From the NCBI RefSeq assembly GCF_035594765.1, contig NC_085845.1:171694897-171758896 (forward strand): a DNA stretch of 64,000 bases. Reading direction: 5' to 3'. Below are positions 21,343 to 57,490 of the stretch, in pieces; position 1 is the stretch's first letter, and every line of letters begins with the position of its first letter. The notes beneath the pieces were generated by a model. That model saw only the letters and a program-made list of their open reading frames with translations. It was not told the DNA's origin and searched no databases. The stretch comes from Anolis carolinensis. Lineage: Eukaryota. A program made the position numbers and the translations under genes.

Positions 21343-21406
21343 CACAGAAGGGATCGGGTTTTTTCCTTCGCTGGGTTGAATCTTTCTTTCCTTCTGCTAT
21401 GAATAG

Positions 21407-21550
21407 CATCCTCTTCCCAGCCCAAGAAAGTGGCATCCTCTGCCAGACCGACCAAGCAGTTGCTGAAAAGGTTGAGAAAGAAGAAGAAGCGGCTGGGGCC
21501 TGGAAGAAACAAGGCCACCGTCAAAGGCAAAGTGGTCAAATCTGCTTTAG
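21407..21550 (+). CDS. RPS19BP1: RPS19BP1 coding exon 2
   Basis: Acceptor tgaatag|; reads ASSSQPKKVASSARPTKQLLKRLRKKKKRLGPGRNKATVKGKVVKSAL (cf. human KGKVPKSAL); donor G|gtgaga. 144 nt keeps phase 1. Confidence 0.85.
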
Positions 21551-22392
21551 GTGAGAGAGAAACAACAAGGGGGAGGTGGTTCCCTTCTGGGATCTGTCAA
21601 TCCCATTTCTGTCCCCATAATTCTGCACATATAGGGTGCATCTACACACTGTTGAATTGATGCAGTTTGACACCACTTTAACTGCCATGGCTCAATGCTC
21701 TGGAATCATAGAAGTGGAAGTTTTACAAGCCCTTTAGCCTTTCTCTGTCAAAGAGCTCTGGTGCCTTTCCAAACTACAAATCCTAGGATTTCATAGCGTT
21801 GAGCCATAACAGATAGAGATGTGAAACTGCACTCATTCTACAGAGTAGATGAAACACTGGTGTTCTGATTTCCTGTTTGTGACTTTAACATACGTAATAT
21901 GTAAATAGTGAAGAAATTCAGCTTTTAAACTAACTGTTTAAAATTACTCTGTCAGACAAATAAGCAACTGGAAGTCCTCTGCTATGTCAGACCTTTTTCA
22001 GTTTCTGGCTGGGTAGTTGTGTCCACAACAGTCTTTTTTTCTTCTTAAAGATTAATGAATTTATAGTTGTGTAATATGTTATAACATATGCTTCTGAGAT
22101 CTCAAATGCCTGAAATGTTATCCAGAATTTCAAGTGTATATACAGCAGACACTGGAAGTGGGTAGTGGTATTGAAAGCCATAAAGTCAAAAGGGATTAGA
22201 TGTATAATGTGACACTGAGAATTAATTGCATTCAAGATAACAGAAATGGCACTGTGTGATAAAGACTTTTGTGTTTGTCCTCCATAAACATTTATCCTTT
22301 GTTCAACTAAAGACCAGTTTAACAGTTCTAGATTTATAACCCATGCCTCTATTTGGACTAAAGTTACACTTTTTGGAAAAAAAAATCCCCAG

Positions 22393-22490: not shown

Positions 22491-23118
22491 GTAACCTACT
22501 ATTTTCATTCATATCCAGAGGAAAACACACAGCTTTATAGAGATACTGTTTATGTGGTTTAAAAAACAAGCATTATTTTGCATCTTTATATGCGACTTGT
22601 TTGTTGAAATAAAAGCTCAGTTGACAGGTCCCAGCTTTGAAAGGAGACTTAGTATATTACTTCACTTCTAAGATGTACTTTCCCTCCATCTAAATGTGTC
22701 TAAAAACTGGGTCCATCTTAGAATTGCAAGTGCTTTTATAAACTTTTTTTCTGTTGATGATACTGCTGTTATTGTGCATCATACAACTGATGAATTGAAG
22801 AAATACAATATTAGTGTAGTTCTATGCATTTCCATTTGAATGAATTAGTGCTGCCTTTCATCTAGCATTCTAGCCAGAATACTTCAAAATCCTAGTAATC
22901 ATTAGGGTTTTTTCATGAAGTATTCTGAAATATGCAAGTGTTGCCTTCCTGCACTGAATTTAAATGACTTATTCTGCTTCCTATATAAATCCTCATATAC
23001 TGGTTTTTCTTTGTCTCTCTGCAGTGTTCAAATATTTAGGCTAGATTATGGTTGATGGATGTAAGTTTGTGCTGTTAGTAATGGTGTAATGTTTGTTTGT
23101 TTGCAAATGGATTTGAAG

Positions 23119-23259
23119 ATTTTGGACCAAAACAGAGGGAGGAAAGCTAAAGACCGTTCCCAAGAGGAAGCAAAGAAAAAGCCTTCAGACACGGTATTCA
23201 CTGAGGAAGACTTCCAACGATTTGAGAGGGAGTATTTTGAGGGAGCTGGAAGAGTCTGA
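23119..23259 (+). CDS. RPS19BP1: RPS19BP1 coding exon 4 (total CDS 435 nt, 144 aa)
   Basis: [13 protein letters not shown]...[18 protein letters not shown] matches the AROS C-terminus ILRQNRGRKACDR...[16 protein letters not shown]. Confidence 0.95.
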
Positions 23260-23822
23260 CCAAAGAGACTGTTTCTCATTGTTTACAGATCCTTTTTGTG
23301 TGTTTTTGGGATACATATTTTCAGAGGGTGCAGAACCTTTACATCTGATTTTTCAGTTATCTAATGTGTGATTTTGCAGTTTGTCCTGTGTGCATAGAAT
23401 CTTTATTTCCCTATCACCAGGATGCAAACTGCTCATTTACATTTACTTGCTGCTGTAATCTAGAGTAACTAGATAGAATGAAATCTCCCATCATCGTATA
23501 TCAGAGAGAAGCTGATTGCCCAATTTGGGAGCGAGGAAAGTCTTCTAGAGCATAAGCACAGGACTCCCAATTTGATTCAAGAAACACAACACTGGAATAT
23601 TATGCCTAAAACATAACCAAGTTGCTACTATTTGGAAGTCTTTTATATGTACTGTAACAAGTACTGTGGCACTAGCCAAAAGAAATGGGAATCTGAAGTA
23701 GTTTCATAAGAGTAGTAGCATAAATCCAGGTTTGTTGTTATGCTTGTACTCTGCAGACTGATGCAGATTATAGTTCCCTATTATCCGGTCATGTGAAAAT
23801 ACATCAATCTCAATATTGTATT

Positions 23823-25469: not shown

Positions 25470-26329
25470 CTATTCTGGAACTTTAACCTTTTTATTCTTG
25501 GCTTTGCGGACCTCTTCAATCAGATCTTTCAAATACTGAATTTCTTTGCTCAAGGAATCTGCCTTCTCCCTCAGGACTTCATTTTTCTGCTCTAATTCTC
25601 TACACTCTCCTGATAATGCCTTTTGCTCTAGCCTTTTCTTCTGCCGATACCGTGTAGCTGCAGTCTTATTTTGCTCCATCTTCTTCAGCTTTTTGTCTAC
25701 CCTTTTTTCTCCCTTCATTTTCAATGCTACCTTTTCTTCAGGGTGATCATAAGGTGTGGGGCGCACGGAAACAATATGCACAGCCGCAACAGACTTTTCA
25801 TCACTGAGGGAACTAACTGAAGTGGTGGGACTTTGCTGGGGTGAACAAAAGTAAGAATCTGGGCTCATGCATATTCCACTATCATTATCAGAATGTGCTT
25901 CTTCCTCCTTCTCACACTTTGGAATGACATTTAGTGGAATTACCACTATGATATGGGCTTCTGTTTTCCCATCTCCTTCAAGAACATCTATCTCACTGCC
26001 TAGTTCTAAGCTGAAAGGGTTGTCTGCAGTGGCGACATGTGGCTCTGGGGAGAGGGCTAATGTCAGCAAGGGGCTCAGGGAGGCCGTCTGATCTGAGCTG
26101 GTGGGGGGTTTTGGGGACTCAATAATTTGCTCTGGTGTCAGTGTAGTTTCTTCACTGGGAATTTCTTGAATGGAAGGCTCAAGTAGATCACACGTGTTTT
26201 CCAACGTGGCCATGAGCTCATCTGGTGAGACGGTGGATTCCAGATCATCAATACCTAACAGCACATCGAAGTCAAACTCCTTCAGATCCATGTTTTCCAC
26301 CATCCAATCCATGCCAGAGAAGGCATCCT
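25470..26329 (-). CDS. ATF4: ATF4 last coding exon (bZIP, DSGICMS betaTrCP degron)
   Basis: EDAFSGMDWM...SDNDSGICMSP...KKLKKMEQNKTAATRYRQKKR...KEIQYLKDLIEEVRKA. Acceptor ccttgacag|AG. Confidence 0.98.
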
Positions 26330-26555
26330 CTGTCAAGGGAAAGAAAAAATCCTTTGAGAAAACTAAACGTTTCATAAAAATAAATTCTTTTCCTTAATAC
26401 ACAATCAGAACATATCCAGTTGCCATTATATTAGCAAAGTTTTTAAAGTAAGAACTGCTTATTTTCAAGACTGCTCACTTTCACAGAATGAGTAGACCAA
26501 CACTCCCTCCCTCGCCCCTTGCATTTCCAGAATCCTTTTATCCCTCTGGTCTTAC

Positions 26556-26772
26556 CCTGGCTGTTGTCTGTGGCATTATTCAAACTGTCCACAGCCAGCC
26601 AATTGGAGGCGCCCACTTTAGCCTTGTCGCTGGAGAACCCATGCGAACTGAGCTTCTTGGCCACCTCCAGATAGTCATCTAAGAGTCCTAGACTTTCTTC
26701 AGCCCCCAAACACGGCTGGTTGAAGGGGGAGAGAAAATCCCCCCACAACATCTCTGTGTTTGAGAAGCTCAT
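26556..26772 (-). CDS. ATF4: ATF4 first coding exon portion (total CDS 1077 nt, 358 aa)
   Basis: MSFSNTEMLWGDFLSPFNQPCLGAEESLGLLDDYLEVAK...; donor CAG G|gtaag; phase 1 joins the last exon in frame. Confidence 0.95.
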
Positions 26773-28755
26773 CTTGGCCAAGTTTTAGTACTTTGTCGTC
26801 GAAAAGGGTGGACAAATCGGTGGTATTTTTGTCGAAAACAGCAAAGCTGCTGTGCAATGCTTTGAAAAACCTGGAAAGCAAAGAAAATGGCATTACCAAG
26901 GTGACACAATTTTGTAAGGACCTTGAATTTACCCCTACAGTAGGATAAGACATTCTATACATGATGCTTGCCGGAGTTTTTTCTGAGGCGCCATCTGGAA
27001 TCCAGACTTGAAATTCTTCTGAATACCAACCCACAACCACAAAATGGCGCCAACTAGAGGCTATCAAATGTTCCCACTTCTGCCTACCCGCCTTTCTTTC
27101 CTCATGACCATATATGGTCCGAGGCACAGCAGACGCTCCACCCGCCACTCCCTTCGCTTGATTCATGCCTTCATTTGCTACAACAGCTGCAGCCATTTCG
27201 TGCTCTACGTGTCTGTGTCCCCACCCAACACCTAGGCCGCCATTTTGTATCCTGCCACGTTTTTTATTTCAGCTGGTCCAACTAGTTTTCATCTTTTACT
27301 ATCTGTTTAATCCACACTAAGCAGAAGCACCTTAAAAATTCCAGGAACTTTACATGGACTTTCAGAGATTAAAAGTGGAGAAATGCTCATATACAAGGAT
27401 GTCCACCAAGGTGAAAAATCCATCTATAAATTTAGTGTTTTTCTAGACAACTCAAAAACACTCTAAAATGAACCAGGATAGACCTGAAAGGAATCTCTTT
27501 GTTCACATCAAGAGTTCTTGGCTTTCTAAGGGATTAATTTTCTGTGTACTTTGAACATTTACATAAGCCTCATGAATACCACATAAAATATAATTCGTTT
27601 TTGGCAAATAATAACACATCTGTTACTATGTGTTGTTGAAGGCTTTCATGGCTGGAATCACTGGGTTGCTGTAAGTTTTCCAGGCTGTATGGCCATGTTC
27701 CAGAAGCATTCTCTTCTGACGTTTCACCTGCATCTATGGCAGGCACCCTCAGAAGTTGTGAGGTCTGATAACTAGACAAGAGGTTTATATATCTGTGGAA
27801 AGTCATAGGTGGAAGAAAGAACTCTATTTGTTTGAGTCAAGTGTTAATCAAGGTGGCCAATTGCTACATTCACACTTGCCTAAAACAGACCTACCACCCT
27901 CGACTTTCCACAGATAAACTCCTCTTGCCTAGTTTTCAACAGACTCACAACATCTGAGGATGCTTCTGGAACATGGCCACACAGCCTGGAAGACTCACAG
28001 CAACCCACGTCTTTTGCAATTTATGTCTGACAGCAATTTTTTTTAAAAAAAAGAACCTTACATTTTTCGATCACTGACGGATCAATACTTATGCTCTCCA
28101 GGAATTTTCTTCAGTGTGAAAGGAAATAACTTTGTCCACTAATTAGCCTAATTGAGCAACCACGGGGAATTTACATTCCCTGTGAGCCTATTATAAAGGC
28201 AAACACTAATTCCCAGAAGATTATCTCATTGTCGAAGGCTTTCATGGCTGGAATCACTAGGTTGCTGTGAGTTTTCCGGGCTGTATGGCCATGTTCCAGA
28301 AGCATTCTCTCCAGACGTTTCGCCCACATCTATGGCAGGCATCCTCAGAGGTTGCCCGACATAGATGTGGGCGAAACGTCAGGAGAATGCTTCAAAAAAT
28401 GGCCATAGAGCCCGGAAAACTAACAGCAACCCGATTATCTCATTGGGGTTTTTCCCCTTGTAGATCTGGGTAAAAGGCACCCAGTTCTTCCCGCAAGAAA
28501 TGGGTCCCTCGAGCCAAACGCCTCTCAAGAAGTGAACCAGAGCCCACAAAAGGCTCGCCGTGAATAGACTAATAAACAAGTCCCTGTCAAGGTCTATGAC
28601 ACCATCTACCCGCTTGCCTCTCCCGCTGGGGCCATCTACGCTGTCCCATTAATGCCATGGCAGTTAAAGCGGGATTAAACTGCATTAATGTGACCGTGTA
28701 GATGACTCCTCTAATCTTTTTTCTCTCTGTTGCTCCTTGGCCATACTCACGCCAT
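26699..28755 (-). CDS. ATF4 uORF2 (spliced: 28755-28751 + 26870-26699; 58 aa; overlaps the main ORF out of frame by 74 nt)
   Basis: cagccATGGC|gtgagt ... tttccag|G TTT TTC gives MAFFKALHSSFAVFDKNTTDLSTLFDDKVLKLGQDELLKHRDVVGGFSLPLQPAVFGG*, homologous to mammalian uORF2 (ends ..GFGG*). Confidence 0.9.
27628..28005. mobile_element. Penelope inverted pLTR pair in ATF4 intron 1
   Basis: pLTR on minus at 27628-27845 and on plus at 27846-28005. Confidence 0.85.
28229..28432. mobile_element. Penelope pLTR fold-back fragment in ATF4 intron 1
   Basis: Arms gttgctgtgagttttccgggc...acgtttcgcccacatctatg / catagatgtgggcgaaacgtc...gcccggaaaactaacagcaac. Confidence 0.85.
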
Positions 28756-28840
28756 GGCTGGAGGTGCCTGGAGGTGCCGAGGCCGCGGCCGGTTCTGCTG
28801 CGCCTCTGCAATGGCCGTTCTGCCGCTCGCGCTGCCGCCC

Positions 28841-28852
28841 CTACGGTGCCAT
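28841..28852 (-). CDS. ATF4 uORF1 (M-A-P-stop)
   Basis: gccgccATGGCACCGTAG in perfect Kozak context, 85 nt upstream of the uORF2 ATG. Same 3-codon design as mammalian uORF1. Confidence 0.9.
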   Translation of the reverse strand: MAP

Positions 28853-28949
28853 GGCGGCGCCTGAGGAAGCTCAAACAGCTCTGCGCCTCGTCGGTCTGAG
28901 CCGAGCCCGCGCCAATCACACAGAACCCCCTCCTCCTTAGATTTCAGCC

Positions 28950-36955: not shown

Positions 36956-39946
36956 TTAAAACATCCTAAAAGCACCTTTTAAACACCAGCAACAGAACTC
37001 AAAAGCCTGCCGAAACAGGTGTGTCTTACATGCCCTGCGGAAGGCCAACAAGTCCCGCAAGGCACGAACTTCAGGTGGCAAGGTGTTCCACAGAGATGGC
37101 GCCACTACTGAAAAGGCTCTGCGTCTAGTTGCAGTTAGACGCAAGGTCTTAAAACTGGGGACTTCCAGCAGGTCTTGGTCCTCAGAACGGAGGGATCTCT
37201 GGGGTTTGTAAGGGGTGAGGCGGTCCCTCAGGTACATCGGCCCTGGACTATGTAAGGCCTTGAAGGTAAGCACCATCACTTTGAAAGTGATCCGGTGCTC
37301 AATTGGTAACCAGTGCAGCTGCCGTAAGATTGGTGTTATGTGGCATCTTATGGGGACTCCCGCAAGGAGCCGGGCAGCTGCATTTTGCACCAATTTGAGC
37401 TTCCGGATCACCGACACAGGAAGGCCAATGTAAAGGGCATTACAGTAATCCAGTCTCGAGATGACTGTAGCCTGGATCACTGTAGCCAGGTTGTCCCTAG
37501 ATAGATAGGGGGCTAGCCGTCTAGCCTGCCGAAGATGAAAAAAGGCAGTTTTGGTAACGGCGGAGACCTGGGCCTGCATCGTCAGTGAAGGGTCCAAGAG
37601 GACTCCCAGACTCTTTACTAGTGAAGACGGGCGTAGCACTTCACCATCCAGGGTTGGCAACTGGATATCCCCACTGCCCGGTCGGCCCAGCCATAGGAAC
37701 TCCGTCTTTGCTGGATTCACCCTCAAACTACTGGAACGCAACCATCCAATAATGGCCTCGAGGCACTGGTGAAAACTGTCGGGTACAGACTCCGGTTGGC
37801 CTTCCATCTTTAACACAAGCTGAGTGTCGTCAGCATATTGATAACACTCGAGCCCGAAATCTCGGACCAGCTGAGCAAGTGGTTGCATATAGATGTTAAA
37901 CAACAGAGGGGAGAGAATGGCCCCCTGAGGAACCCCACAATGTAGAGGGGACCTCTCAGAGACCAGGCCCCCCCTCTCCACTCGCTGTCCACGGTTGTGA
38001 AGAAAGGAGGCCAGCCAATTTAAAGCTGTCCCCCTAACTCCAGCAACGGCAAGGCGGTGGGTCAGAAGATTGTGATCGACTGTGTCAAATGCTGCTGTGA
38101 GATCCAATAACACAAGCAACACCGACCCGCCCCGGTCAAGCTGGCATCGGAGATGATCTGTGATGGAAACCAATACAGTCTCTGTCCCATGCCCCGCACG
38201 GAAGCCAGACTGGAAAGGATCCAGTCCGGCTGTGTCGTCTAGGAACTGCTGCAGCTGCACCGCTACTGCCCTCTCAATCACCTTGCCCATAAATGAAAGA
38301 TTCGAAACTGGGCGGTAGCTGGAGGGAACCAAACGATCTAAATCTGGTTTTTTCAGCAGAGGAGAGACCACTGCCTCTTTTAATCCCTCTGGAAAGACTC
38401 CTTGCTCAAGGGAGCTGTTTATTATCTTCAGCAGCGGGTCACGTAATCCCTCCAAGCAGGATTTTACTAACCAAGAGGGACACGGGTCAAGGGAGCAAGT
38501 GGTCGGTCTAGCTGCAGCTATGAGCCTATCGAGACCCTCTGCGTCCAGTGGGATGAACTGGTCGAGGGTGGGCCCAGCAAGTGGCCACGGAGTCTCAAGT
38601 TCTCTCATTGTATCAGTTGTGGCGGGGAGGTCCCGGCGTAGTAGTGAGATCTTGTCAGCAAAATAGCTTTGAAAAGCCTCGGCTGAAGGGGTCTGATCAT
38701 CACTTTTTGGGTTGGTAGGAACCGTCGTTAGAGATCTAATTATTTTGAACAATTTTGCCGGGCGTGAGCTGGCGGACTCTATCAAAGAGGCATAGTATAC
38801 TCTCTTTGCTTCGATGGTAGCATGCTCATAGGACTCCATAAATGCCCTGTAAGCTGATCTCGAAGCTCTGTCATGAAGTTCTCGCCACACGCCCTCTAGC
38901 CGTCTCTTTTCCCGCTTCATCGATCGAAGTTCCTCGGTGAACCAAGGAGACCGATTTCGGCGGGGTTGGAGAGGGCGTCTAGGGGCGATCTCGTCGAGTG
39001 CATTGGACAGCCTGATGTTCCACATGTCCACCTGCACATCGATTGAGTCGCTGACAGGCTCCAGATCCTTCAGAGCATTCTGGAACCTACTAGGTTCCAT
39101 AAGTCTTCTTGGGCGAGCCCAAATCGGCTCGGCGCCCTTGCCAGGTGGGTAGGCATGCTCCAGCCTGACTCTCAGGGCACAGTGATCCGACCATGGAACC
39201 TCTAAAATAGAGGCTTGGGTCACTTGAATTCCTGCGCTGAAGATCAAGTCTAGCGTATGTCCTGCTTGATGCGTGGGCCCAGTACTGCAGAGCAAGAGTC
39301 CTAGTGTCTCCATGGTAGACACTAGGTCCATAGCCGCTGCTGAGCAAGAGTCCGTATCAGCGTGGACATTGAAGTCCCCCAGGACAACAAGTCTGGGGAA
39401 CCTCAAGGACCACTCCGACACAGTCTCGAGCAGCTGGGATAGGCTGTCTGCTGGTGCACTAGGCGCACGGTACACCAGCAGAAAGGCCATGCTCTCAGGG
39501 GAATCCCACTCCAGACCAACACATTCAGTGCCAGAGATGTCCACAACAGGAACTGCCCTAAGAGAAAAGCTTTCTCGGGAGAGCATAGCCACCCCACCCC
39601 CCCGCCTCCCACTCCGCATCTGGTGGGTGATTACATAACCTGGAGATGTTATTTCCTGGAGTAGGATCTCGTCCCCCTCTTGGATCCAGGTTTCAGTGAT
39701 ACACACTAGGTCAGCTCCCTGGTCAGTAAGAAAATCTCTGATAGTAGCAGTTTTATTCCTTATGGACCTAGCATTCACCAACACCAGGGTAGGAGGGGAG
39801 GAAACTGGTCGCCTGTCATAGGTGCACTTGGGGATAGGCCGCAGGTCAGAGGGGGGCCGAGTCTTCCGTCGACTCAGCCTCCCTCTAATATTCGGCCTGA
39901 GCCTACCGTCATATCTCCCCCTCCCAGAGATCGTAGGAATTCCCAT
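36956..39946 (-). CDS. L2 ORF2: APE endonuclease + reverse transcriptase (996 aa, uninterrupted)
   Basis: EN motifs LVNARS, ITETW, GDFN, HTLDLIF, SDH. RT motifs QSGFR, LLDLTAAFDTVDH, GVPQGAILSPLLF, YADD. L2 C-terminus SRLDYCN, LHWLPI, RAFSVVAPSLWN. Confidence 0.95.
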   Translation of the reverse strand: MGIPTISGRGRYDGRLRPNIRGRLSRRKTRPPSDLRPIPKCTYDRRPVSSPPTLVLVNARSIRNKTATIRDFLTDQGADLVCITETWIQEGDEILLQEITSPGYVITHQMRSGRRGGGVAMLSRESFSLRAVPVVDISGTECVGLEWDSPESMAFLLVYRAPSAPADSLSQLLETVSEWSLRFPRLVVLGDFNVHADTDSCSAAAMDLVSTMETLGLLLCSTGPTHQAGHTLDLIFSAGIQVTQASILEVPWSDHCALRVRLEHAYPPGKGAEPIWARPRRLMEPSRFQNALKDLEPVSDSIDVQVDMWNIRLSNALDEIAPRRPLQPRRNRSPWFTEELRSMKREKRRLEGVWRELHDRASRSAYRAFMESYEHATIEAKRVYYASLIESASSRPAKLFKIIRSLTTVPTNPKSDDQTPSAEAFQSYFADKISLLRRDLPATTDTMRELETPWPLAGPTLDQFIPLDAEGLDRLIAAARPTTCSLDPCPSWLVKSCLEGLRDPLLKIINSSLEQGVFPEGLKEAVVSPLLKKPDLDRLVPSSYRPVSNLSFMGKVIERAVAVQLQQFLDDTAGLDPFQSGFRAGHGTETVLVSITDHLRCQLDRGGSVLLVLLDLTAAFDTVDHNLLTHRLAVAGVRGTALNWLASFLHNRGQRVERGGLVSERSPLHCGVPQGAILSPLLFNIYMQPLAQLVRDFGLECYQYADDTQLVLKMEGQPESVPDSFHQCLEAIIGWLRSSSLRVNPAKTEFLWLGRPGSGDIQLPTLDGEVLRPSSLVKSLGVLLDPSLTMQAQVSAVTKTAFFHLRQARRLAPYLSRDNLATVIQATVISRLDYCNALYIGLPVSVIRKLKLVQNAAARLLAGVPIRCHITPILRQLHWLPIEHRITFKVMVLTFKALHSPGPMYLRDRLTPYKPQRSLRSEDQDLLEVPSFKTLRLTATRRRAFSVVAPSLWNTLPPEVRALRDLLAFRRACKTHLFRQAFEFCCWCLKGAFRMF

Positions 39947-39984
39947 ACACAGACCTACTTCTCTTGGGGGCTCTACAGCAGAAA

Positions 39985-41823
39985 CTAGGTGCCCAATGTT
40001 CGACTGGCCCCCTGAAAAGGAGGTGGGGCATGGCCAATTACCAAGTGGTCATAAATAGAGCCCTCAAAGTAATGAGGGGCAGGTGTAAAGGCCAGAACAC
40101 CCGGCCAGCATTGTGGGTGGGGGGGTGATCTAGGGGACGTCAAGTCTAGGTTCCCTCGAGAGTGTTGGAATAAGTTCTTAACTCCACCACACCGGGAGGT
40201 CACTCTCTCTTTTATGTCCACAGTTCTGATACTCGAATCCCAGGTACTAGTGTTTTGGGGGCGTGCTCCCTTCTCCATATTAACAGATCTAGAACCACTT
40301 GGTGGAACATTGGCCAATTTGTGGGAGAAGGGAGTAGTTGCAGGTCTTGTCCGGTTACCGAATCCTACTCCCCAGAAGATTCTAGTCTTAAATTTCTTTT
40401 GATGACAGCCACGTCTCTGAGACCTACGATTTGGAGGCTTACCGGTTCCCATCATTGTATATTTGTCCATGTCTGGGGCTTCAGGTTCTCCAGAGTCTGT
40501 GGTCAGACCATCTTGGCCCGCTGCCAATCCAGCACTCTGCAAAGTGCCAGGAACTCCCTCTGCTAGAAAAATAATTTGTTCTGGCTTCTCACCAGAAGTC
40601 CGGCGCATATCATGGCAGCGTTTCTGTCTCCAGTCGGTGTGACCCGCACGCCTGTGCCGAAGCTTTTTGGGGTTTGGAGAAGAAGGCATGAGCTCACCGA
40701 TGGCGTCCCCAAGGTCAGCCGCCATCTTTGGTGCTTGCCTCTTTGACAGGGAGAGGCAGCGACGTCGTTGGGGGCTTCCACAAAAGGGGGGCACTGAAGG
40801 AGAGACAGGCACCCGTCCAAGGATCTCTGTCACATCCAATGCGTCCATTTCAGGCAGAGAGGGCCAGTCCTTTTCCTGTCTGGTGGTCCCAGGGGGTCCC
40901 TGCCCAGACCAGGGACATGGGTTGGTCGGCCCAAGATCAAGAGGGCATAGACCACCAAACAAGCAGCCATGGGAAGCTGACTCTAAAATCTCCCCCTTCG
41001 GCATCGAGAGCGCATCCTGGCTCATCATGGGACTCTCAAATGGCTCTCCAGTTTCCAGCGAAGCTCTTCGCAGAATTGAAGAAGGCTCCATGGGGTGGTC
41101 CCGGTTTTGAGCCCAAGCTAGGTCTCTGGCATTCTGAGGGTCAGGATCCAATGAATTCCATATGGTTCTCCCTTGTGTGTAATCTAGGGATTGAGCTGAT
41201 GGGTGGTTCAGTAGGCAAAGCAATCTCCCAAACCGATTAAGCTGATCGGCCAGTTGGTTGAATTCTGCAAACAGCAGACTCACCAATCTTGAATCTGATC
41301 TTCCACCATCTTGACCAGGTCTCTGATCATCCGAACAGTTTGAGCGGTCTGGCCCCTTCAGATTTTCTTCCAGGGGTTTCGGTAGATCCAAGATCGCATT
41401 CAGATCCAGGAATCGCACGGGGCTGTTTGTGGTCCCCTCATGGAGATCCACTGAGGCCCGAGAAACCTGGAAAACTTGAGGAGACTGGGGAACCTGAGGA
41501 ATCTGAAGATCTTCCCTCTCAGGACTCAGGTATATATCACGAGCCTTGTGGAATTGATCAGGGAGTGGTGTCAGCTCCCCAACCCTCAAGGGCTCAAATC
41601 TGTTGGTTAAAGTGATAGCTGTCTCTTCAGGCGTCCTTGAGGCTTGAGCTTGGCGTGCAGCTGCAGAGTCCTCTAAGTAACTTTGTTTTAGTAAGATAGA
41701 TTCACCTACTGGCTTTGGAGATGTTTTCTTTCTTTTACAATCCTTCTTATCATCTTGAGAGCCCTGAACAATTGGTAAGGCAACTTTTTTCTTCCTATTA
41801 GGCATTTTCTTCCTATTAGGCAT
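39985..41823 (-). CDS. L2 ORF1 candidate (612 aa, basic N-terminus, Pro/Ser-rich)
   Basis: Open frame ending 38 nt before the ORF2 ATG. LTNRFEPL motif typical of CR1/L2 ORF1s; no other domain recognised. Confidence 0.7.
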   Translation of the reverse strand: MPNRKKMPNRKKKVALPIVQGSQDDKKDCKRKKTSPKPVGESILLKQSYLEDSAAARQAQASRTPEETAITLTNRFEPLRVGELTPLPDQFHKARDIYLSPEREDLQIPQVPQSPQVFQVSRASVDLHEGTTNSPVRFLDLNAILDLPKPLEENLKGPDRSNCSDDQRPGQDGGRSDSRLVSLLFAEFNQLADQLNRFGRLLCLLNHPSAQSLDYTQGRTIWNSLDPDPQNARDLAWAQNRDHPMEPSSILRRASLETGEPFESPMMSQDALSMPKGEILESASHGCLFGGLCPLDLGPTNPCPWSGQGPPGTTRQEKDWPSLPEMDALDVTEILGRVPVSPSVPPFCGSPQRRRCLSLSKRQAPKMAADLGDAIGELMPSSPNPKKLRHRRAGHTDWRQKRCHDMRRTSGEKPEQIIFLAEGVPGTLQSAGLAAGQDGLTTDSGEPEAPDMDKYTMMGTGKPPNRRSQRRGCHQKKFKTRIFWGVGFGNRTRPATTPFSHKLANVPPSGSRSVNMEKGARPQNTSTWDSSIRTVDIKERVTSRCGGVKNLFQHSRGNLDLTSPRSPPHPQCWPGVLAFTPAPHYFEGSIYDHLVIGHAPPPFQGASRTLGT

Positions 41824-43729
41824 TTTAACTGTGCCTCGCGTCTCTTCTTGTTTGTCTGAAGGATTATCAACAGCCTAATTAGTTTCTCTTCCTCCCCGGT
41901 TTCATAGATGTGGTTTGGAAAGTATAGTTTAAAAATAGCTGATAAAATGTTAATAAAACAATAGAACAGATATTTAAAACATTAAGTAAAACTTAAAAGA
42001 CAGGCTGGGGAGTTTCATATATCAACATTTGCATCAGCTTTGCTAGGTTTGTGATCTGAGAAACAACGATGGAAGACTTTGCTAAAGATTCCAGAGATAC
42101 CAAAGAACAAACCATTGCTCTTTCTCCCATATAGGTTTTGAAAAACAACGATGCAAGTAATGACAAATGTAATACTATTACAAATACCTATAGTATTTTA
42201 TGTTGATAAAAATGTTCCAAATATTTTACTCAATGACCTATTAAATAAACCCCTTTTAATTACACCATTACCTATCCAAAAAACTATCTACAACATCACT
42301 AAAATAATAGACTATTTATTTCCCATTGCAAAAAAGGCAATAAAAAGCACCCTACATGATCGGCTTTAGTAAGAGACTCATATTTCATCTTTCTCTTACA
42401 CTGCTCATTCTTTTAAGTGAAAAGGCAAAAGTGATTGCAAAAGCTTAAATAATGGAAATCAGATGTAGATATTATTCCTTGCCTGCAAAAGATAATACAT
42501 CTTCATAAAAGAGCTCATTGTGAAGTTGAACCAAAGACATAAATGAATTCATATGAACTGGCATTTATATGGTGAAATTTCAAACAGTAAATTCAATCCC
42601 TGTGTTAAAATTACTACTGGTTTTAGATCTCAGTTGTTTTCTGTTCAGCCTAATCATCAGAGGTGACAATAGTTCTTCAACTCATTCAGCATCACAAAAG
42701 TCCTAAGGATTTATCATTACAATAGTTTTAGAAATAGACAGTGTTTTCTCTTTGGCAACTGCAGGATTTTAACACTAGGCTCACAGATCTATGCCCACTG
42801 TTACTTCCCTAAAAGTATATTTGTCAGATATTTAAACATGAAGTTTTACCTTTGGAAAACTCCAGGATTGAACCAATGTTTTATTTGAACTTTCCCGTAA
42901 GAACCAGGGTTCTAGATGTAAGGACCAGACAAGTGAAGAATAACAGCAACAGAATCCCATCAGTGTATGAAGTGGATCTAACATGTGGGTTATCAATTGC
43001 CTCTGTTCAGGATACCCTCTATTTTGATGTGTGGTAGCAGGGAAAGTAGACAGATTGGTTTCCTATAGCTCTCTAGTCTTACAAAAAACAAAGGAAACCG
43101 TGTGCACCATTTTAAAAAATCCCTGAGTCTGCTGAAAAAGCACAAAAAGTGAATCTTCAACTTTGTGATTACAATCTAACCACATCTATCAAACAGGAAT
43201 CTAACTTGGGCTTTCTTCCAAGGAGGAAGTGTTGCTACATCTGGGGAACTACAGCAATATCATGTTCTTTCTTCTTGACCTACAGAAGGGAACTATACAA
43301 AACCAAGATTGTAATCACATGTTCCTATTCCACAGTTGTAGTTCATCTCATTCTGGCATAACAACAACAAAGCAGTATAAAGGATTATCTGAGTGCAAGA
43401 GGCAATGAGGTTGCAGTTATTATCTAAAGGCACATAGAGATCAAGAAAAATGTTTCAGGCAAGGATGGTAGGGCTAGCAGAAACTATGCTGGTTTGTAAA
43501 GGAACCCTTTCTCCTTTTTGTACAAGTAAAGGTTTAGAGAGATTTCAACATGAAACAAGAAATGAGGTTCCTCAAACATTGTACAACATTCCACTTCCCA
43601 CTCATTGGTGCTTCATTTTGTTTACCTGAATCACCATCCAAGTATGGTAATTATAGCTCTAGACAGAGTCTTGTGCTTACTAATGAGAACTCAGTGGACT
43701 TACAGGCATTTGAGTACTGGTATATATTA

Positions 43730-49760: not shown

Positions 49761-50600
<840 letters not shown>

Positions 50601-51277
50601 TCAAGACCTTTAAAGGTCGCACAAATCATCTGACTAGAGGGGAGACTAGATACAGAGAATCAGCTGGGAATTTCATGCATGATCAGTGCTCCACTATGTA
50701 GTACATGCTCACAACGATAACATGTTGACAGGTATGCAGAAAAGACAAACTTTTTTGTCTAGATGTTTTATTGAGCTACACAGTCTTTCCTCCAATTTTG
50801 CCTAAAGTGAATCTAAATTAATTTGAGAGAGAATTTGGTGAAAGTTAATGCTCATTTTTTTCTGAGGAAACCATAATCACCACTAAAAACCATGCTAGTA
50901 TTTAAAAATAGTCTCAAATATAAATGTCAACCAAGCCAAAATACAATTTATATGAGCTGTGATGTGCTAGGTAACTCAATAATTTTGAATTGCTCTATTA
51001 AGAGCAGTCAATTTTTCCAATTAACATGCTGGGAGGTACCCATTTCCAGCCTATAACAAAAAGAAAATAATAGACTAACTAATAGATTAGACTTTGGAAC
51101 AACATTGAGAAAAGACAGACAAGTAAATTATGGAATTTGATCAGAAAGAGAAAGCATAATACAAAAAAGGCAGGCAGACAAAAAGGTAGGTTTTACCCAG
51201 AGAAAAGTACTTTGTTTCCCATGCAAGATTAAATTGTAACAGAGAGACAGAGTTCAAAATCAGAACCAACCATTTTA

Positions 51278-51721
<444 letters not shown>

Positions 51722-51933: not shown

Positions 51934-52114
51934 CTGTTTCAAAAGCTGAAGGATCAGTGGGAAGAGTCTGAAGAGAACGACTAATATTAGTCTTCATATC
52001 TTGGTTTAGTAACCGCGATGATGATCCAAGCCAACTTGGTTCCTCCCAGCTTCTCTTTCCTGATTGGCTCAAACGGGTGGGACTGGCAGGAGCACTGATT
52101 GCCCGGTCATACAT
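51934..52114 (-). CDS. MIEF1: MIEF1 coding exon 2
   Basis: MYDRAISAPASPTRLSQSGKRSWEEPSWLGSS..SRSLQTLPTDPSAFET; 181 nt. Confidence 0.95.
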
Positions 52115-52235
52115 CTAAAGTGGAAGAAGCAGGAAGCTGAATGTTAAATCCATTCAAAAGCATCCATCCTGTCATTGCATCTTTTCCGGCAGCCATGCAT
52201 TCTGGAATCGTTTCATTCACTGTGTTCACTCTTAC

Positions 52236-52379
52236 CCGTTTGACAGCCAAGGTGGCGATCCCCAGCATGGCAGCGCCACCAACACCCAGCACGAGTCGGG
52301 CATTGGACAACACAAAATCAATGGCAGTACCAATGCCATTATCATCCTTCTTTCCTTTGCGCTCTCCAGCGCCTGCCAT
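52236..52379 (-). CDS. MIEF1: MIEF1 coding exon 1 (outer-membrane anchor)
   Basis: MAGAGERKGKKDDNGIGTAIDFVLSNARLVLGVGGAAMLGIATLAVKR; exon starts at 52384; donor CGG|gtaag. Confidence 0.97.
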
Positions 52380-53060
52380 TGCTCCTTCATGGAGAGAGAA
52401 GACCACCAATTGTTAATATTTTTCATTTTATCAATACTTCATTCAATACTTCCTGATTTTAGCCTGAACCTTACTCTTATTACAGAAATAAACAACTAAG
52501 ATGTTGATTCATATTACTAATAAGCTGTACTGCTACATATCATAGCATGGCATGTTTTGTAGCCCTAATGTAATTTGTCTGGAGAAAACTGACATACTTT
52601 TTCCCCAGACAATTCACTGAATGCCAGGGCTGAATGATGGCCTGAATATAACTTTTAACATCCATATCTTTTATGTTGTACTACTCCCTTTCTCCTAAAT
52701 TTAACTAAATTCCCAAGACAGATAAGGCTAACATCTATTTTACTCTCTAAAAAGTCAAAGGCAAAAATAACTGGCATATTTAGTGGCACAAATTCATGTA
52801 GGTGGACTGATTTTCCAGGGAGTCATAAGAACAGTTGAATAGAAAAAAAAGAATATCACAACATTCTAAATAACCTACCTGACACTTAATGCATCTGTGA
52901 AGACGGAAGGAGAATACTCCCAGAGATCTACGTATGATGCTTTCAGGCCTGTTTTCAGGTTTGTTCCAATCGGACAAAATTAACCATCTATCACAGGTGG
53001 ACAGAAGGATTGAGGAAAAGAAGGAGCCAGAAAAGTAAAAGGGGAAGACAAAAAATGTCT

Positions 53061-53273
53061 CTAAACCAATCCTCCAAGTTTACTTTGCAAGAAAGCCTGG
53101 CCCTTCTCCAGTTGTCTTTCCTTCTCTTCAAGATTCTCGAGGTTCTGGTTCTTGCGGAATTCTTGTCGGATGGAGTTAAAGTAGAACTGACGGTCGGTGT
53201 AGCGCAGGCCCCGCCCCTGACGCAGCAGAGCGCGATAAAGGGCCAGCACTGCCTCACGGGTCCACAATGCCAT
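53061..53273 (-). CDS. MIEF1: AltMIEF1 / MIEF1 microprotein (LYR-motif, 70 aa) in leader exon 53298-52879
   Basis: [73 protein letters not shown] tripeptide plus downstream F(R)xN; same length as and close to the human uORF protein as I recall it. Confidence 0.95.
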
Positions 53274-53802
53274 GGAGGAACGATACCAGGATGACGATCT
53301 GAAGACACACAGAAAAATCAAATAATGACTATATTTGCATACAGTAGACACTCAATCAACTGGCACCTATGAGGATTGGTAGATGCTAGATAAATGTAGT
53401 TTCTGGTTGCTTCAGAGTGACTATTAAAATCAGTCCCAATATTATATCTCATCCTATACCTTAACATAAACTCTGTATTGATTTCATGTTAATATTAAAA
53501 TACAGTAATTAAAAGCAAATAAAGACAAACCTAACTTAATGTTTTACTGTATTATAAAAACAGCTTTGTGGACACAGTATTATTTATTCAATTTTTTGCC
53601 AGTTGCTTGAGAGTTCTGTTTGCCTGAGTGCCAGTTAATGGAGTCTATTTATATATTCTTAACTAGATTATACCTTACCACTAACAAAAATAGGAGGGGT
53701 TGAAGAATGAGGTAAAGTCAGCAAATTATTGGAAGTCACCGCATGGTCATGCAGACATGCTAGTAGTTGAGAATATGAAGACCTTGGAAAAAGAGAGGTC
53801 TA

Positions 53803-53966
53803 TGTGTTCTTGAAGGCTTTCATGGCTGGAATCACAGGGTTGTTGTGTGTTTTCCGGGCTGTATGGCCATGTTCCAGAAGTATTCTCTCTTGACGTTTTG
53901 CCCACATCTATGGCAGGCATCCTCAGAGGTTGTGAGATATATACCCGGAAAACACACAACAACCCC
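53803..53966 (-). mobile_element. Penelope pLTR fragment in MIEF1 intron 1
   Basis: pLTR text with a short inverted end. Confidence 0.85.
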
Positions 53967-54177
53967 AAAGAGAGGTCTTCCCAACTAGAGGAGAGCCATT
54001 TTGAAATATAGATTTCATGCATTTTAATGCATTTTAAATTAATTTGGAAAGCTATCCAGTTGCCTCTGGGTGTGATGGAATGCTCATTCCTTGGAGGTTT
54101 TTTTAACAGAGCCTGGATGGTCATCTTTTGGGGATGCTTTGATTGTGCCTTTCCTGCATGGCAGGAGATTGGACTAG

Positions 54178-54822
54178 TTTATTTATTATTTATTTACCAT
54201 ATTTATATCCCACCTTTCTCAACCCCGATGGGGACTCAAGGCAGCCTTACAACAAGCTGCAATTTGATGTCATACACACATATATCAAATAAACAATTCC
54301 AGTTAAAACCAATTATTAAAACATTAATTAAATCACACCATCCAAAACATAATCTATGGCCATTCCATTTCTCAATCACATATTGCACTGTTCCAATTAC
54401 TTGTCAAAAGCTTGATCCCAAAGCCATGTCTTTTTCCTGAAGGTCAAGAGAGAAGAGGCTGATCTGATCTCACTGGGGAGGGAGTTCCATAGTCAAGGGG
54501 CCACCACTGAGGAGGCCTGTCTCTCTACCCCACTAATTGCACCTGCGAAGGAGGGGGCACCGAGAGCAGGGCCTCCCCAGACAATTTTCATCTCCGAGAT
54601 GGTTCACAGAGGAAGATATGTTTGGACAGGTATGCTGGGCCAATTTAGGGCTTTATAAGCTAAAGCCAGCACTTTGAATTGTGCTTGGTAGCAGACTGGT
54701 AGCCAGTGGAGATAGCATAACAGGGGGATTGTGTACTCCCTGTATGCCACTCCGGTGAGAAATCTGGCTGCCTCTCGTTGGACCACTTGAAGCTTCTGAA
54801 CAGTCTTCAAAGGCAACCCAAC
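54178..54822 (-). mobile_element. L2 3' fragment
   Basis: KLQVVQREAARFLTG..LHWLPV..FKVLALAYKAL plus an L2 tail. Confidence 0.8.
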
Positions 54823-55479
54823 ATAGTTGGGCTATCTGGTCTTTTCCAACTCTTATTACTCTATAATTCTAAAATGTTTTGCCTTTCTATAAAACAAATA
54901 TTTGGAGCACAAGACTGGGAAGTTAACGCTGTGTGTTTCTTCTTTGCCATCACTAAATGCCTTTTTTCTTTTTTGTCAAATGGGTATTCTCATACAGTGG
55001 TTCAGGCTGAAATTGTCCCCCATGCCATCCAAGGTGCATTTACACTGGAGAATGGATGCAGCTTGGGATCATTTTAACTGCCATGGCCCACAGCGATGGA
55101 TTCCTGGGATGTGTAGTTTAGTGGGGGCACCAGCACACTTTGATAGAGAAGGCCTAAAGACCTTCTGAAACCACAACAGCACGATTCCATAGCACTGGGC
55201 CATGGTAGTTAAAGTGGTACTGAAGTGCATCGATTCTACAGTGCTGATCAGGAATGGGCAAACTTGGGCCTTCCCTCCAGGTGTTTTGGACTTCAACTCC
55301 CACCATTCCTCACAGCCTCAGGCCCCTTCCTTTTCCCCCTCAGCCGCTTAAGCCGCTGAGGGGGGAAAGGAAGGGGCCTGAGGCTGTGAGGAATGGTGGG
55401 AGTTGAAGTCCAAAACTCCTGAAGGGAAGGCCCAAGTTTCCTCATGCCTGGTGTAGATGTATCCGTTAACCCAAGGAAG

Positions 55480-55800
55480 CCATTTGGTGTGTGGGGCTGT
55501 ACGAGAAAGCAAAGAAGAAAACGGGGGGCGAAGAAGGCGAGGGCCCCTCGCTTTCGGTACCTTCAGGAAGGAGAAGGACGGGGCCCCGCCGCCGATCGAG
55601 GGCTCCAAGCCCGCCTCTTCCCGCTCGCCGCAACGCGCCCGAGGGTCAATCAGGAACATGGCCGCTCCCCTTCCGGAGCACGACCTTCTTCGTTATGGAA
55701 ACGCAGAGAGGGTTCCAAACGCGTCACTTCCTGTTCACTCCGACTTTGCCGGGTGGGGTGGGGAAGAGGAGCCAAGCCAGTGTCGAGTGCACTCACGATG
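55480..55800 (-). promoter_or_regulatory. MIEF1: MIEF1 CpG-island promoter and exon 1 (donor at 55561|55560)
   Basis: CpG-rich; minus-strand ACAGGAAGTGACGCG (ETS + half-CRE) at about 55720-55734; donor GAAG|gtaccg. Confidence 0.7.
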
Positions 55801-55877: not shown

Positions 55878-57490
55878 GTTGCTGAGTTTTCCGGGTTGTA
55901 TGGCCGTGTTCCAGAAGCACTCTCTCCTGACATTTCGCCTGCATCTATGGCAGGCATCCTCAGAGGTTGTGAGATCTGTTGGAAACTAGTTAAATGGGGT
56001 TTATATCTCTGTGGAAGCTCCAGGGTGGGAGAAATAACTCTTGTTTGAATTTGAATGTTGCAGTAGCCCACAATGATTAGTATTGAATAGCCTTGCAGCT
56101 TCAAAACCTGGCTGTTTCCTGGGGGAATCCTTTGTTGAGAAGTGTTAGCTGGCCCTGATAGTTTCTTGTCTGGAATTCCCCTGTTTTCTAAGTGTTCTTC
56201 TTTGTTTACTGTCCTGATTTTAGAGGGTTTTTTTTAATACCAGTAGCCAGATTTTGTTCATTTTCATGGTTTCCTCCTTTCTGTTGAAATTGTCCACATG
56301 CTTGTGGGTTTCAATGGCTTCTCTGTGTAGTCTGACATGGTGGTTGTTAGAATGGTCAAGCATTTCTGTGTTCTCAAATAATATGCTGTGTCCAGGATGG
56401 TTCATCAAGTGCTCTGCTATGGCTCTCTGGTTGAAGCAGTTTGCAATGCCTTTCATGTTCCTTGATTCGTGTCTGGCCTCTGTGCTTCGTGGTCCCTATG
56501 TAGACTTGTCCACAGCTGCATGGTATATAGTAGACTCCTGCTTTACTGTCCTGAGTTTAGAGTGTTTTAAAGACCAGTAGCCAGATTTTGTTTATTTTCA
56601 TTGTTTCCTCCTTTCTGTTGAATTGTCCACATGTTCTTGGATTTCAGTGGCTTCTCTGTGTAGTCTAACATGGTGGTTGTTAGACTGGCCCAGCATTTCT
56701 GTATTTTCAAATAATATACTGTGCCCAGGTTGGTTCATCAAGTGCTCTGCTATGGCTGACTTCTCTGGTTGAGTTAGTCTGCAGTGTCTTTCATGTTCCT
56801 TGATTCATGTTTTGGTGTTGTGTACCATTTCAGAGATGCTGTTGAAATCTACATGCATGTGGACAATTTCAACAGAAAGGAGGAAACCATGAAAATGAAC
56901 AAAATATGGCTACAAGTATTAAAAAAAACCCCTCTAAAATAAGGACAGTAAAGCAGGAGTCTACCGTATACTGTGCAGTTGTGGACAAGTCTACATAGGG
57001 ACCACCAAATGCAGCATTGTCCAAGCTCGAATCAAGGAACATGAAAGGCAATACAGACTAACTCAACCAGAGAAGCCAGCCATAGCAGAACACTTGATGA
57101 ACCAACCTGAACACCACATACAGTAGAGTCTCACTTATCCAACGTTCTGGATTATCCAACGCATTTTTGTAGTCAATGTTTTCAATACATCATGGTATTT
57201 TGGTGCTAAATTCGTAAATACAGTAATTACTACATAGCATTACTGCGTATTGAACTACTTTTTCTGTCAAATTTGTTGTTAAACATGATGTTTTGGTGCT
57301 TAATTTGTAAAATCATAACCTAATTTGATGTGTAATAGGCTTTTCCTTAATCCCTCCATATTATCCAACATATTCACTTATCCAACAGTCTGCCACCCTG
57401 TTTATGTTGGATAAGTGAGACTCTACTGTATTATTTGAGAACACAGAAATGCTGGACCACTCTAACAACCACCATGTCAGACTACATGGG
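55878..57490. mobile_element. Complex Penelope cluster (tandem and inverted GIY-YIG fragments, with a Tc1 MITE inserted)
   Basis: Minus copies at 55878-56820 and plus copies at 56835-57490. The MITE at 57121-57428 splits acata|ttatttgagaacac. Confidence 0.85.

What the first reader, a model, noticed from the sequence alone, without database searches (positions are those of the whole stretch)
53061..53273. Bicistronic MIEF1: conserved 70-aa LYR microprotein in the 5' leader
The leader encodes a clear orthologue of AltMIEF1/MIEF1-MP. In mammals this protein binds mitochondrial ACP and MALSU1 on assembling large mitoribosomal subunits, while the main ORF encodes the DRP1 receptor MiD51. Same length, intact LYR motif and a dedicated exon show the two-protein mRNA is kept in a squamate. 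Automated annotation usually misses it.
Basis: partly seen in the sequence, partly recalled or inferred. Interest (0 to 1): 0.7.

Follow-up and report, generated by a model that had tools for sequence, protein, structure and literature searches.

The report
Lizard copy of two-protein MIEF1 gene
This lizard's MIEF1 gene carries an intact 70-residue microprotein frame in a leader exon that is spliced onto the exons of the fission receptor MiD51, so one mRNA likely makes both proteins as in humans; the arrangement is known across vertebrates and already annotated in many reptiles, so it is ordinary.

Summary
Window 53273-53061 (minus strand) encodes a 70-aa LYR protein: Pfam PF05347 E 1.3e-11; 51 of 69 residues identical to human AltMIEF1 (PDB 5ool_v); one copy in the genome. 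It lies wholly in exon 2 of MIEF1, and exons 3-6 encode an intact 464-aa MiD51. One assembled contig joins exons 1-5 through four GT-AG introns, while a DNA-like run goes straight through, so both frames probably share one mRNA. Translation and partner binding were not shown in the lizard; they are inferred from mammals. The claim that annotation usually misses it is not borne out: the exact protein is in NCBI/UniRef, and 9 of 11 squamate relatives carry the AltMIEF1 name. Human-to-zebrafish conservation is in print, and this scan reached the same verdict on a ray and a gecko. One side lead: an exon-1 ATG (55659), also present in mammals, birds and a skate, opens a 47-codon frame that here overruns the microprotein start, whereas in human and mouse it stops before it. 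This may alter the ratio of the two proteins, but the ATG may be kept only as part of a YY1 site. Interest 0.12.

The parts
55561..55673 (-). MIEF1 exon 1 (5' end is a minimum; true start unknown), in a CpG-rich stretch
   Evidence: Contigs X6 rec 17 (from 55673) and X10 rec 3 (from 55655) join 55561 to 53298; CpG obs/exp 0.94-1.08
55653..55676 (-). CCGGAAG at 55676 (ETS-type motif, label recalled) followed by GCCATGTT, which is both the first upstream ATG (55659) and a match to the YY1 core GCCATnTT
   Evidence: Motif scan; YY1 core as written in PMC2743690; same core by eye in published mRNA rows
53254..55659 (-). uORF1: 47 codons, spliced from exon 1 into exon 2, overruns the AltMIEF1 ATG out of frame, stop ends at 53254
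   Evidence: Spliced-leader translation; both variants seen in it change the residue
52879..53298 (-). Exon 2, 420 nt, holds the whole microprotein frame
   Evidence: AG/GT sites; joints in contigs
53061..53273 (-). AltMIEF1 (MIURF / altMiD51 / L0R8F8) ORF, 70 aa, LYR at 12-14, F39-R40
52380..53060 (-). Spacer between the two frames: 187 nt after splicing (182 in exon 2, 5 in exon 3), with two short ATG frames at 52987 (10 codons) and 52894 (2 codons); intron 2 is 52878-52385
   Evidence: the ATG at 52987 is lost by a variant in runs X5 and X10
52236..52384 (-). Exon 3 with the MiD51 ATG at 52379
51934..52114 (-). Exon 4 of MiD51
51368..51630 (-). Exon 5 of MiD51 (PF21297)
49761..50567 (-). 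Exon 6 coding part of MiD51 to the TAA stop; the exon 5-6 junction is predicted, not seen among the listed joints
   Evidence: PF21297 and PF20266; PDB MiD51 E 1e-139 against MiD49 E 1e-56; coding exon sizes 144/181/263/807 against human 144/178/263/807 (coordinates)

Best explanation
This is the lizard orthologue of the vertebrate MIURF-MIEF1 gene: an intact 70-aa LYR frame in exon 2 is spliced to the MiD51 exons, so one mRNA likely yields both a matrix microprotein and the outer-membrane DRP1 receptor. Shown here: the ORF, its orthology, the exon layout, an intact MiD51 frame and the spliced joins. Inferred from mammals: scanning ribosomes would start mostly at the microprotein ATG (context -3 T, +4 G) and reach MiD51 by leaky scanning or re-initiation, so the microprotein frame would also damp MiD51 output; the microprotein would bind acyl-ACP through LYR...F and bridge it to MALSU1 on the late large mitoribosomal subunit, blocking premature subunit joining.
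For: Full-length match to solved human and mouse-named AltMIEF1 chains, E 9e-29 and 1e-31. LYR in 31 of 31 aligned homologues, 28 of 31 exactly 70 aa, 30 invariant columns (31 of the 60 sequences in hand were aligned). One strong copy in the genome; the only other match (E 0.13) is LYRM4-like. Downstream frame is MiD51, not MiD49, 464 aa without a break. Contig X10 rec 3 (1110 nt) holds exon 1, all of exon 2, and exons 3, 4, 5 with four CT..AC joints, 148 letters on the short side of the exon 2/3 joint; DNA-like run X15 crosses the same places without a joint. The exon 2/3 joint is also listed in X4, X5 and X6, so in 4 of 7 RNA-like runs laid, from 3 studies. No AATAAA/ATTAAA on this strand from 53298 down to 50773. 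Synteny with a bZIP gene read as ATF4 and an AROS-like exon (the human gene order is recalled). One RsfS-family match, the family of MALSU1 (family link recalled), is in the genome. Human evidence in print: co-expression from one transcript (PMC5703645), microprotein 2.6-5.7 times more abundant than MiD51 and MiD51 rising when the uORF is broken (PMC6283296), 171/210 long reads positive (PMC13303939 supplement).
Against: No ribosome or peptide data for the lizard. All runs laid were short-read contigs whose RNA status is the tool's guess; a contig is not one molecule. Only X10 has 31 or more letters on both sides of the exon 2/3 joint (X4 18, X5 24, X6 27), and the exon 1/2 joint was seen in one study only (X6, X10). 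No listed contig reaches exon 6. Low-depth contigs run from exon 3 into intron 2 in X4 and X6, so unspliced or intron-retaining RNA, DNA, or another start cannot be excluded. The leader has three more ATGs and a spacer of 187 nt against 98 in human, so the mammalian ratio need not hold.
Confidence: 0.92

Rival explanations
1. Two neighbouring genes sharing a promoter region: the microprotein is made from a short mRNA of its own (exons 1-2) and MiD51 from a separate or exon-2-skipping mRNA; joined transcripts are a minor read-through.
For: RefSeq models of hawk, green turtle and swan list the microprotein under a separate gene id, and the hawk MIEF1 model starts just after it. Low-depth contigs extend from exon 3 into intron 2. 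27 and 2 joints were not shown in the two layings, so an exon 1-3 joint could be hidden.
Against: One unbranched contig spans exons 1-5; exon 2/3 joint in three studies; no canonical poly(A) signal after the stop and CpG obs/exp 0.0 in intron 2; single models hold both frames in human, mouse, chicken, toad and zebrafish.
Confidence: 0.05
2. The frame is kept mainly as a cis-acting brake on MiD51 translation, and the lizard peptide has little role of its own.
For: In human cells breaking the uORF raises MiD51 (PMC6283296) and its repression is partly sequence-dependent (PMC7530721).
Against: LYR, F39 and R40 invariant in 31 of 31 sequences; homologues sit in mitoribosome structures, including kinetoplastid chains named L0R8F8; the subfamily is traced to early eukaryotes (PMC11293456). 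A brake and a protein role are compatible; brake-only is what is unlikely.
Confidence: 0.02
3. In this lizard the overlapping uORF1 captures most ribosomes and carries them past the microprotein start, so little microprotein is made and the mRNA is in effect MiD51-first.
For: ATG 55659 has G at -3 while the microprotein ATG has T at -3; uORF1 ends 20 nt into the microprotein frame; one contig includes the ATG.
Against: The microprotein is as conserved as in other reptiles and is the only copy; one contig starts 4 nt after this ATG and the true start is unknown; the ATG sits in a YY1 core.
Confidence: 0.06

Closest known systems
Human MIURF-MIEF1 (AltMIEF1 = altMiD51 = MIEF1-MP = L0R8F8; NM_019008; PDB 5ool_v) and the chain named 'Predicted gene, 55359' (PDB 9e9c_v)
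   Same: 70 aa, LYR motif, whole ORF in exon 2 ahead of a MiD51 frame with nearly the same coding exon sizes; 51/69 and 55/70 identical residues (counted by eye); further ATGs upstream of the microprotein start (PMC9825577).
   Different: Spacer 187 nt against 98 nt in human (PMC6283296), with two short extra ATG frames, one polymorphic; uORF1 is 47 codons and overlaps the microprotein start, whereas by eye it is 19 codons and ends before it in human, mouse and dog rows; MiD51 464 aa against 463.
Annotated squamate AltMIEF1 proteins (Anolis sagrei XP_060633069.1, Sceloporus undulatus XP_042324911.1, Varanus komodoensis XP_044311377.1, Podarcis spp.)
   Same: Same length and name; 66/70, 64/70 and 59/70 identical; the first two share a 90% cluster with the window's protein.
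   Different: Only scattered substitutions; their leaders were not available to compare.
Other LYRM proteins (LYRM4/ISD11)
   Same: PF05347, LYR...F signature.
   Different: Only E ~3e-5 to this protein; other partners.
Other vertebrate bicistronic mRNAs (STREMI-SLC35A4, PYURF-PIGY, ASDURF-ASNSD1; PMC13303939)
   Same: Conserved microprotein frame upstream of an unrelated main frame.
   Different: Unrelated proteins.

Membership tests
LYRM family (PF05347) | Profile match over the curated cut-off | tested here: met
   44.7 bits against 24.8, E 1.3e-11
LYRM family (PF05347) | N-terminal LYR plus downstream Phe and Arg (as defined in PMC11293456, PMC7312649) | tested here: met
   L12-Y13-R14, F39-R40, invariant in 31 of 31
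LYRM family (PF05347) | Three-helix bundle | tested here: inconclusive
   Model has helices 6-18, 28-42, 48-65 but pLDDT 61, pTM 0.35; fold searches gave nothing above background
LYRM family (PF05347) | Binds acylated mitochondrial ACP | not testable with these tools
   Inferred from human data in review passages
AltMIEF1 / MIURF subfamily | Far closer to AltMIEF1 than to other LYRMs, full length, about 70 aa | tested here: met
   E 1e-31 to 3e-28 against 3e-5 for LYRM4; single copy
AltMIEF1 / MIURF subfamily | Bridges MALSU1 and mt-ACP on the assembling large subunit | not testable with these tools
   An RsfS-family match exists in the genome; binding not examined
Vertebrate MIURF-MIEF1 bicistronic gene | Microprotein ORF in exon 2, upstream of and apart from an intact MiD51 frame | tested here: met
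Vertebrate MIURF-MIEF1 bicistronic gene | Exon 2 spliced to the MiD51 exons | tested here: met
   Contig X10 rec 3 joins exons 1-5; exon 2/3 joint in 4 of 7 RNA-like runs, none in the DNA-like run
Vertebrate MIURF-MIEF1 bicistronic gene | Both complete frames on single molecules as the main form | tested here: inconclusive
   Only short-read contigs were offered; none listed reaches exon 6
Vertebrate MIURF-MIEF1 bicistronic gene | Both frames translated | not testable with these tools
   No ribosome or peptide data for this species in reach

The most novel reading that the evidence does not exclude
MIEF1 carries a third, anciently placed start: an exon-1 uORF1 whose stop has moved between lineages. 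In mammals it is short and ends before the microprotein (an ATF4-like permissive uORF that feeds the microprotein and, under eIF2 stress, MiD51), while in this lizard and a hawk it runs over the microprotein start and shunts ribosomes to MiD51. The position of one stop codon would thus reset the ratio of mitoribosome-assembly factor to fission receptor, and its stress response, across vertebrates.
Probability: 0.15. Interest if true: 0.4.

Novelty: already known. Interest (0 to 1): 0.12.

Why it matters
It confirms, with spliced contigs, that a squamate keeps a textbook vertebrate two-protein gene, which was expected from published human-to-zebrafish conservation and from current reptile annotation. 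It opens no new question by itself. The only part a specialist might follow is the leader: uORF1 overlap and the longer spacer give a natural variant for testing how MiD51 is reached (leaky scanning or re-initiation), a point still discussed for human MIEF1 (PMC7619398).

Tried and rejected
ORF length as evidence: rejected, 162 of 2000 shuffles reach it. The 79-aa plus-strand ORF 53055-53294 over the same bases: treated as the antisense shadow, not searched. Structure prediction was low-confidence; Foldseek found nothing at E <= 0.001 and the wide VIA search only background helical matches, best Z 6.0: uninformative, no evidence either way. A second AltMIEF1 copy: the weak genome hit L002 is LYRM4-like. 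The look-up of sequencing runs listed no holder on record as RNA. Runs X9, X12 and X14 showed no listed cover of exon 2; the tool drops human-like contigs, so this is no evidence. A 4-nt insertion at 50055 in X15 looked like a MiD51 frameshift but makes a doubled GATC and is absent from the X12 contig there: read as a ligation artefact (pattern recalled). No differences were listed inside the 213-nt ORF against 2 in uORF1's exon-1 part and 2 in the spacer: too few to count. My first exon model had two one-base errors, corrected; the leader results were not affected. Papers: 'MIEF1'+'Anolis' gave 0 papers; 'MIEF1'+'uORF1' gave 10, listing only; six squamate genus names and 'Anolis' were absent from the homologue table of PMC13303939. 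Rathore 2018 (PMC6443411) was not held; the supplement of PMC7530721, which may list reptile uORF records, could not be read; the conservation figure of PMC4383229 (46 vertebrates) was seen only as a legend and may already show uORF1. No complex prediction was run: a textbook pair would pass by likeness.

Full report
Observation. Window 53061-53273 read on the minus strand gives a 70-aa ATG-to-TAG frame. A frame of this length is no surprise by itself: 162 of 2000 shuffles of the 420-nt exon give one. The protein matches PF05347 (LYR) at E 1.3e-11, above the cut-off, and the solved AltMIEF1 chains over its whole length: 9e9c_v E 1.1e-31 (55/70 identical) and human 5ool_v E 9.2e-29 (51/69; both counted by eye), while LYRM4 scores only about 3e-5. 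In an alignment of 31 sequences (the query and 30 of 59 hits, chosen as full-length and named; partial bird and unnamed entries left out) LYR is present in 31 of 31, 28 of 31 are 70 aa, and 30 columns are invariant, including F39 and R40. The genome holds one copy; the second, weak match is LYRM4-like.

Gene anatomy. On the minus strand the sequence gives exon 1 (at least 55673-55561, CpG-rich), exon 2 (53298-52879), exon 3 (52384-52236, ATG 52379), exon 4 (52114-51934), exon 5 (51630-51368) and exon 6 (from 50567, stop ending 49761), all with GT-AG introns, encoding a 464-aa protein without a break. Its C-terminal part matches MiD51 at E 1e-139 and MiD49 at 1e-56. Coding exon sizes are 144/181/263/807 against 144/178/263/807 in human. 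A bZIP gene read as ATF4 lies downstream and an AROS-like exon (E 0.0003, below cut-off) beyond it on the other strand, the human gene order as I recall it.

One transcript. Of 24 runs listed, none on record as RNA, I laid 8, all assembled contigs. In X10 one 1110-nt contig covers 55655-55561, all of exon 2, exon 3, exon 4 and exon 5 with four intron-sized joints; X15, which looks like DNA, crosses the same stretch without joints. X6 gives a 561-nt contig with exon 1, exon 2 and 27 letters of exon 3; X4 and X5 show the exon 2/3 joint with 18 and 24 letters on the short side. So the joint appears in 4 of 7 RNA-like runs from 3 studies, but only X10 meets the tool's 31-letter rule; X9, X12 and X14 show no listed cover. 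No canonical poly(A) signal lies between the microprotein and intron 5. Limits: contigs are not molecules, none listed reaches exon 6, some joints were not displayed, and low-depth contigs cover parts of introns 2 and 5.

How it likely works. By the scanning model and human data, the microprotein is translated first and MiD51 is reached by leaky scanning or re-initiation. In human cells the microprotein is 2.6-5.7 times more abundant than MiD51 and breaking its frame raises MiD51 (PMC6283296, parts 1 and 4 of 6 read); MIEF1 is moderately resistant to eIF2 repression (PMC4383229, passages); repression is partly sequence-dependent (PMC7530721, passages); scanning complexes pile up within the 'long uORF2' (PMC7619398, passages and first part of Results). 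The protein bridges MALSU1 and mt-ACP on late large-subunit intermediates and may prevent early subunit joining (reviews PMC7312649 and PMC11293456, passages), and its uORF scored as essential in a cell screen (10.1101/2025.07.07.663426, passages). None of this was tested in the lizard. An RsfS-family match is present in the genome. A structure model gave three helices at low confidence and fold searches were uninformative.

What is known. PMC13303939 (passages, section 13, supplement rows) lists MIURF-MIEF1 among 14 human bicistronic transcripts and tabulates homologues; seven squamate genus names searched were absent from that table, and a search for MIEF1 with Anolis found 0 papers, so a squamate case may not be described in the open library. 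Annotation, however, has it: 44 of 59 homologues carry the name (27 AltMIEF1 or MIEF1 upstream ORF, 17 MIDUO; that MIDUO is the same protein's entry name is recalled), 9 have no name and 6 a generic one; 9 of 11 squamate clusters are named; the window's exact protein is in NCBI and UniRef. Two earlier reports of this scan, on a ray and a gecko, reached the same verdict; they are not independent support.

The leader, a side lead. The spliced leader has three more ATGs. Two lie in the 187-nt spacer (human 98 nt): 52987 (10 codons, destroyed by a variant in X5 and X10) and 52894 (2 codons). The third, 55659 in exon 1, opens 47 codons and ends at 53254, past the microprotein ATG and out of frame with it. 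Human NM_019008.6 has two ATG uORFs before the microprotein with footprints on them (PMC9825577, section 15 and passages). Reading published mRNA rows by eye (part of the table only), 13 species had a comparable leader: the same CC-ATG-TT core in 8 (human, mouse, dog, cow, chicken, duck, hawk, skate), ATA at that place in 2 (capuchin, which has an ATG two codons on; toad), and no ATG before the microprotein in 3 fishes. Turtle and swan rows had no leader; sea urchin and lancelet rows were not comparable. The frame ends before the microprotein in the mammals (17-19 codons), chicken (16), skate (14) and probably duck, and overruns it in the hawk model and here. Two variants in the lizard frame both change the residue, so the peptide is probably unconstrained. 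The core also matches the YY1 consensus GCCATnTT (PMC2743690, passages) just after a CCGGAAG, and the ATG/ATA variation fits YY1 binding, so promoter function may explain the conservation. Whether the ATG is on most mRNAs is unknown: one contig starts 14 nt before it, one 4 nt after, and contigs do not show starts.

Verdict. A correct, well-supported sighting of a known vertebrate two-protein gene; already known, interest 0.12. The uORF1 overlap is the most novel reading left open (probability 0.15, interest 0.4 if true).

Noticed in passing
window 55659-53254 (-): Exon-1 ATG in a core shared with mammals, birds and a skate; its frame overlaps the microprotein start here and in a hawk model but not in human or mouse; also a YY1 core.
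   Followed up: partly
window 52987 (-): Spacer ATG is polymorphic: lost in contigs of X5 and X10, kept in X4, X6 and X15.
   Followed up: yes
window 25470-26784 (-), leader up to about 28943: bZIP gene read as ATF4 (PF00170 E 2e-14); frames at 28587-28943 and 26699-27268 may hold its upstream ORFs (no Pfam match; reading recalled). Two uORF-controlled genes thus lie in tandem.
   Followed up: partly
window 36956-41874 (-): Apparently intact LINE between MIEF1 and ATF4: 1030-codon frame with endonuclease (PF03372) and reverse transcriptase (PF00078 E 4.5e-38), preceded by a 612-aa ORF without a Pfam match that overlaps it by about 60 nt.
   Followed up: partly
window 21403-21660 (+) and about 23117-23371 (+): AROS / RPS19BP1-like exon (PF15684 E 0.0003, below cut-off) facing the ATF4-like gene; the second frame had no match.
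   Followed up: partly
window 50055, run X15: Four inserted letters that double a GATC site in MiD51 exon 6; absent in X12; probably a ligation artefact, not a frameshift.
   Followed up: partly
L002:1501-1662 (-) (G000:C2): LYRM4-like frame (E 4e-18 to solved LYRM4) matching 52 residues without an intron; could be an exon or a retrocopy.
   Followed up: partly
window 52235-52859 and 50673-51395: Low-depth contigs of RNA-like runs cover parts of MIEF1 introns 2 and 5: pre-mRNA, DNA or intron retention.
   Followed up: no
window 55270-55420 (intron 1): Short inverted-repeat element, very abundant in the laid runs, just inside intron 1; further high-copy repeats at about 53800-53950 and 55900-56200.
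   Followed up: no
PMC13303939 supplement, dog rows XM_005625861.3 and XM_038679808.1: Predicted dog isoforms splice from inside the microprotein frame to the MiD51 start, cutting the microprotein short; no such joint was among those listed for the lizard.
   Followed up: no
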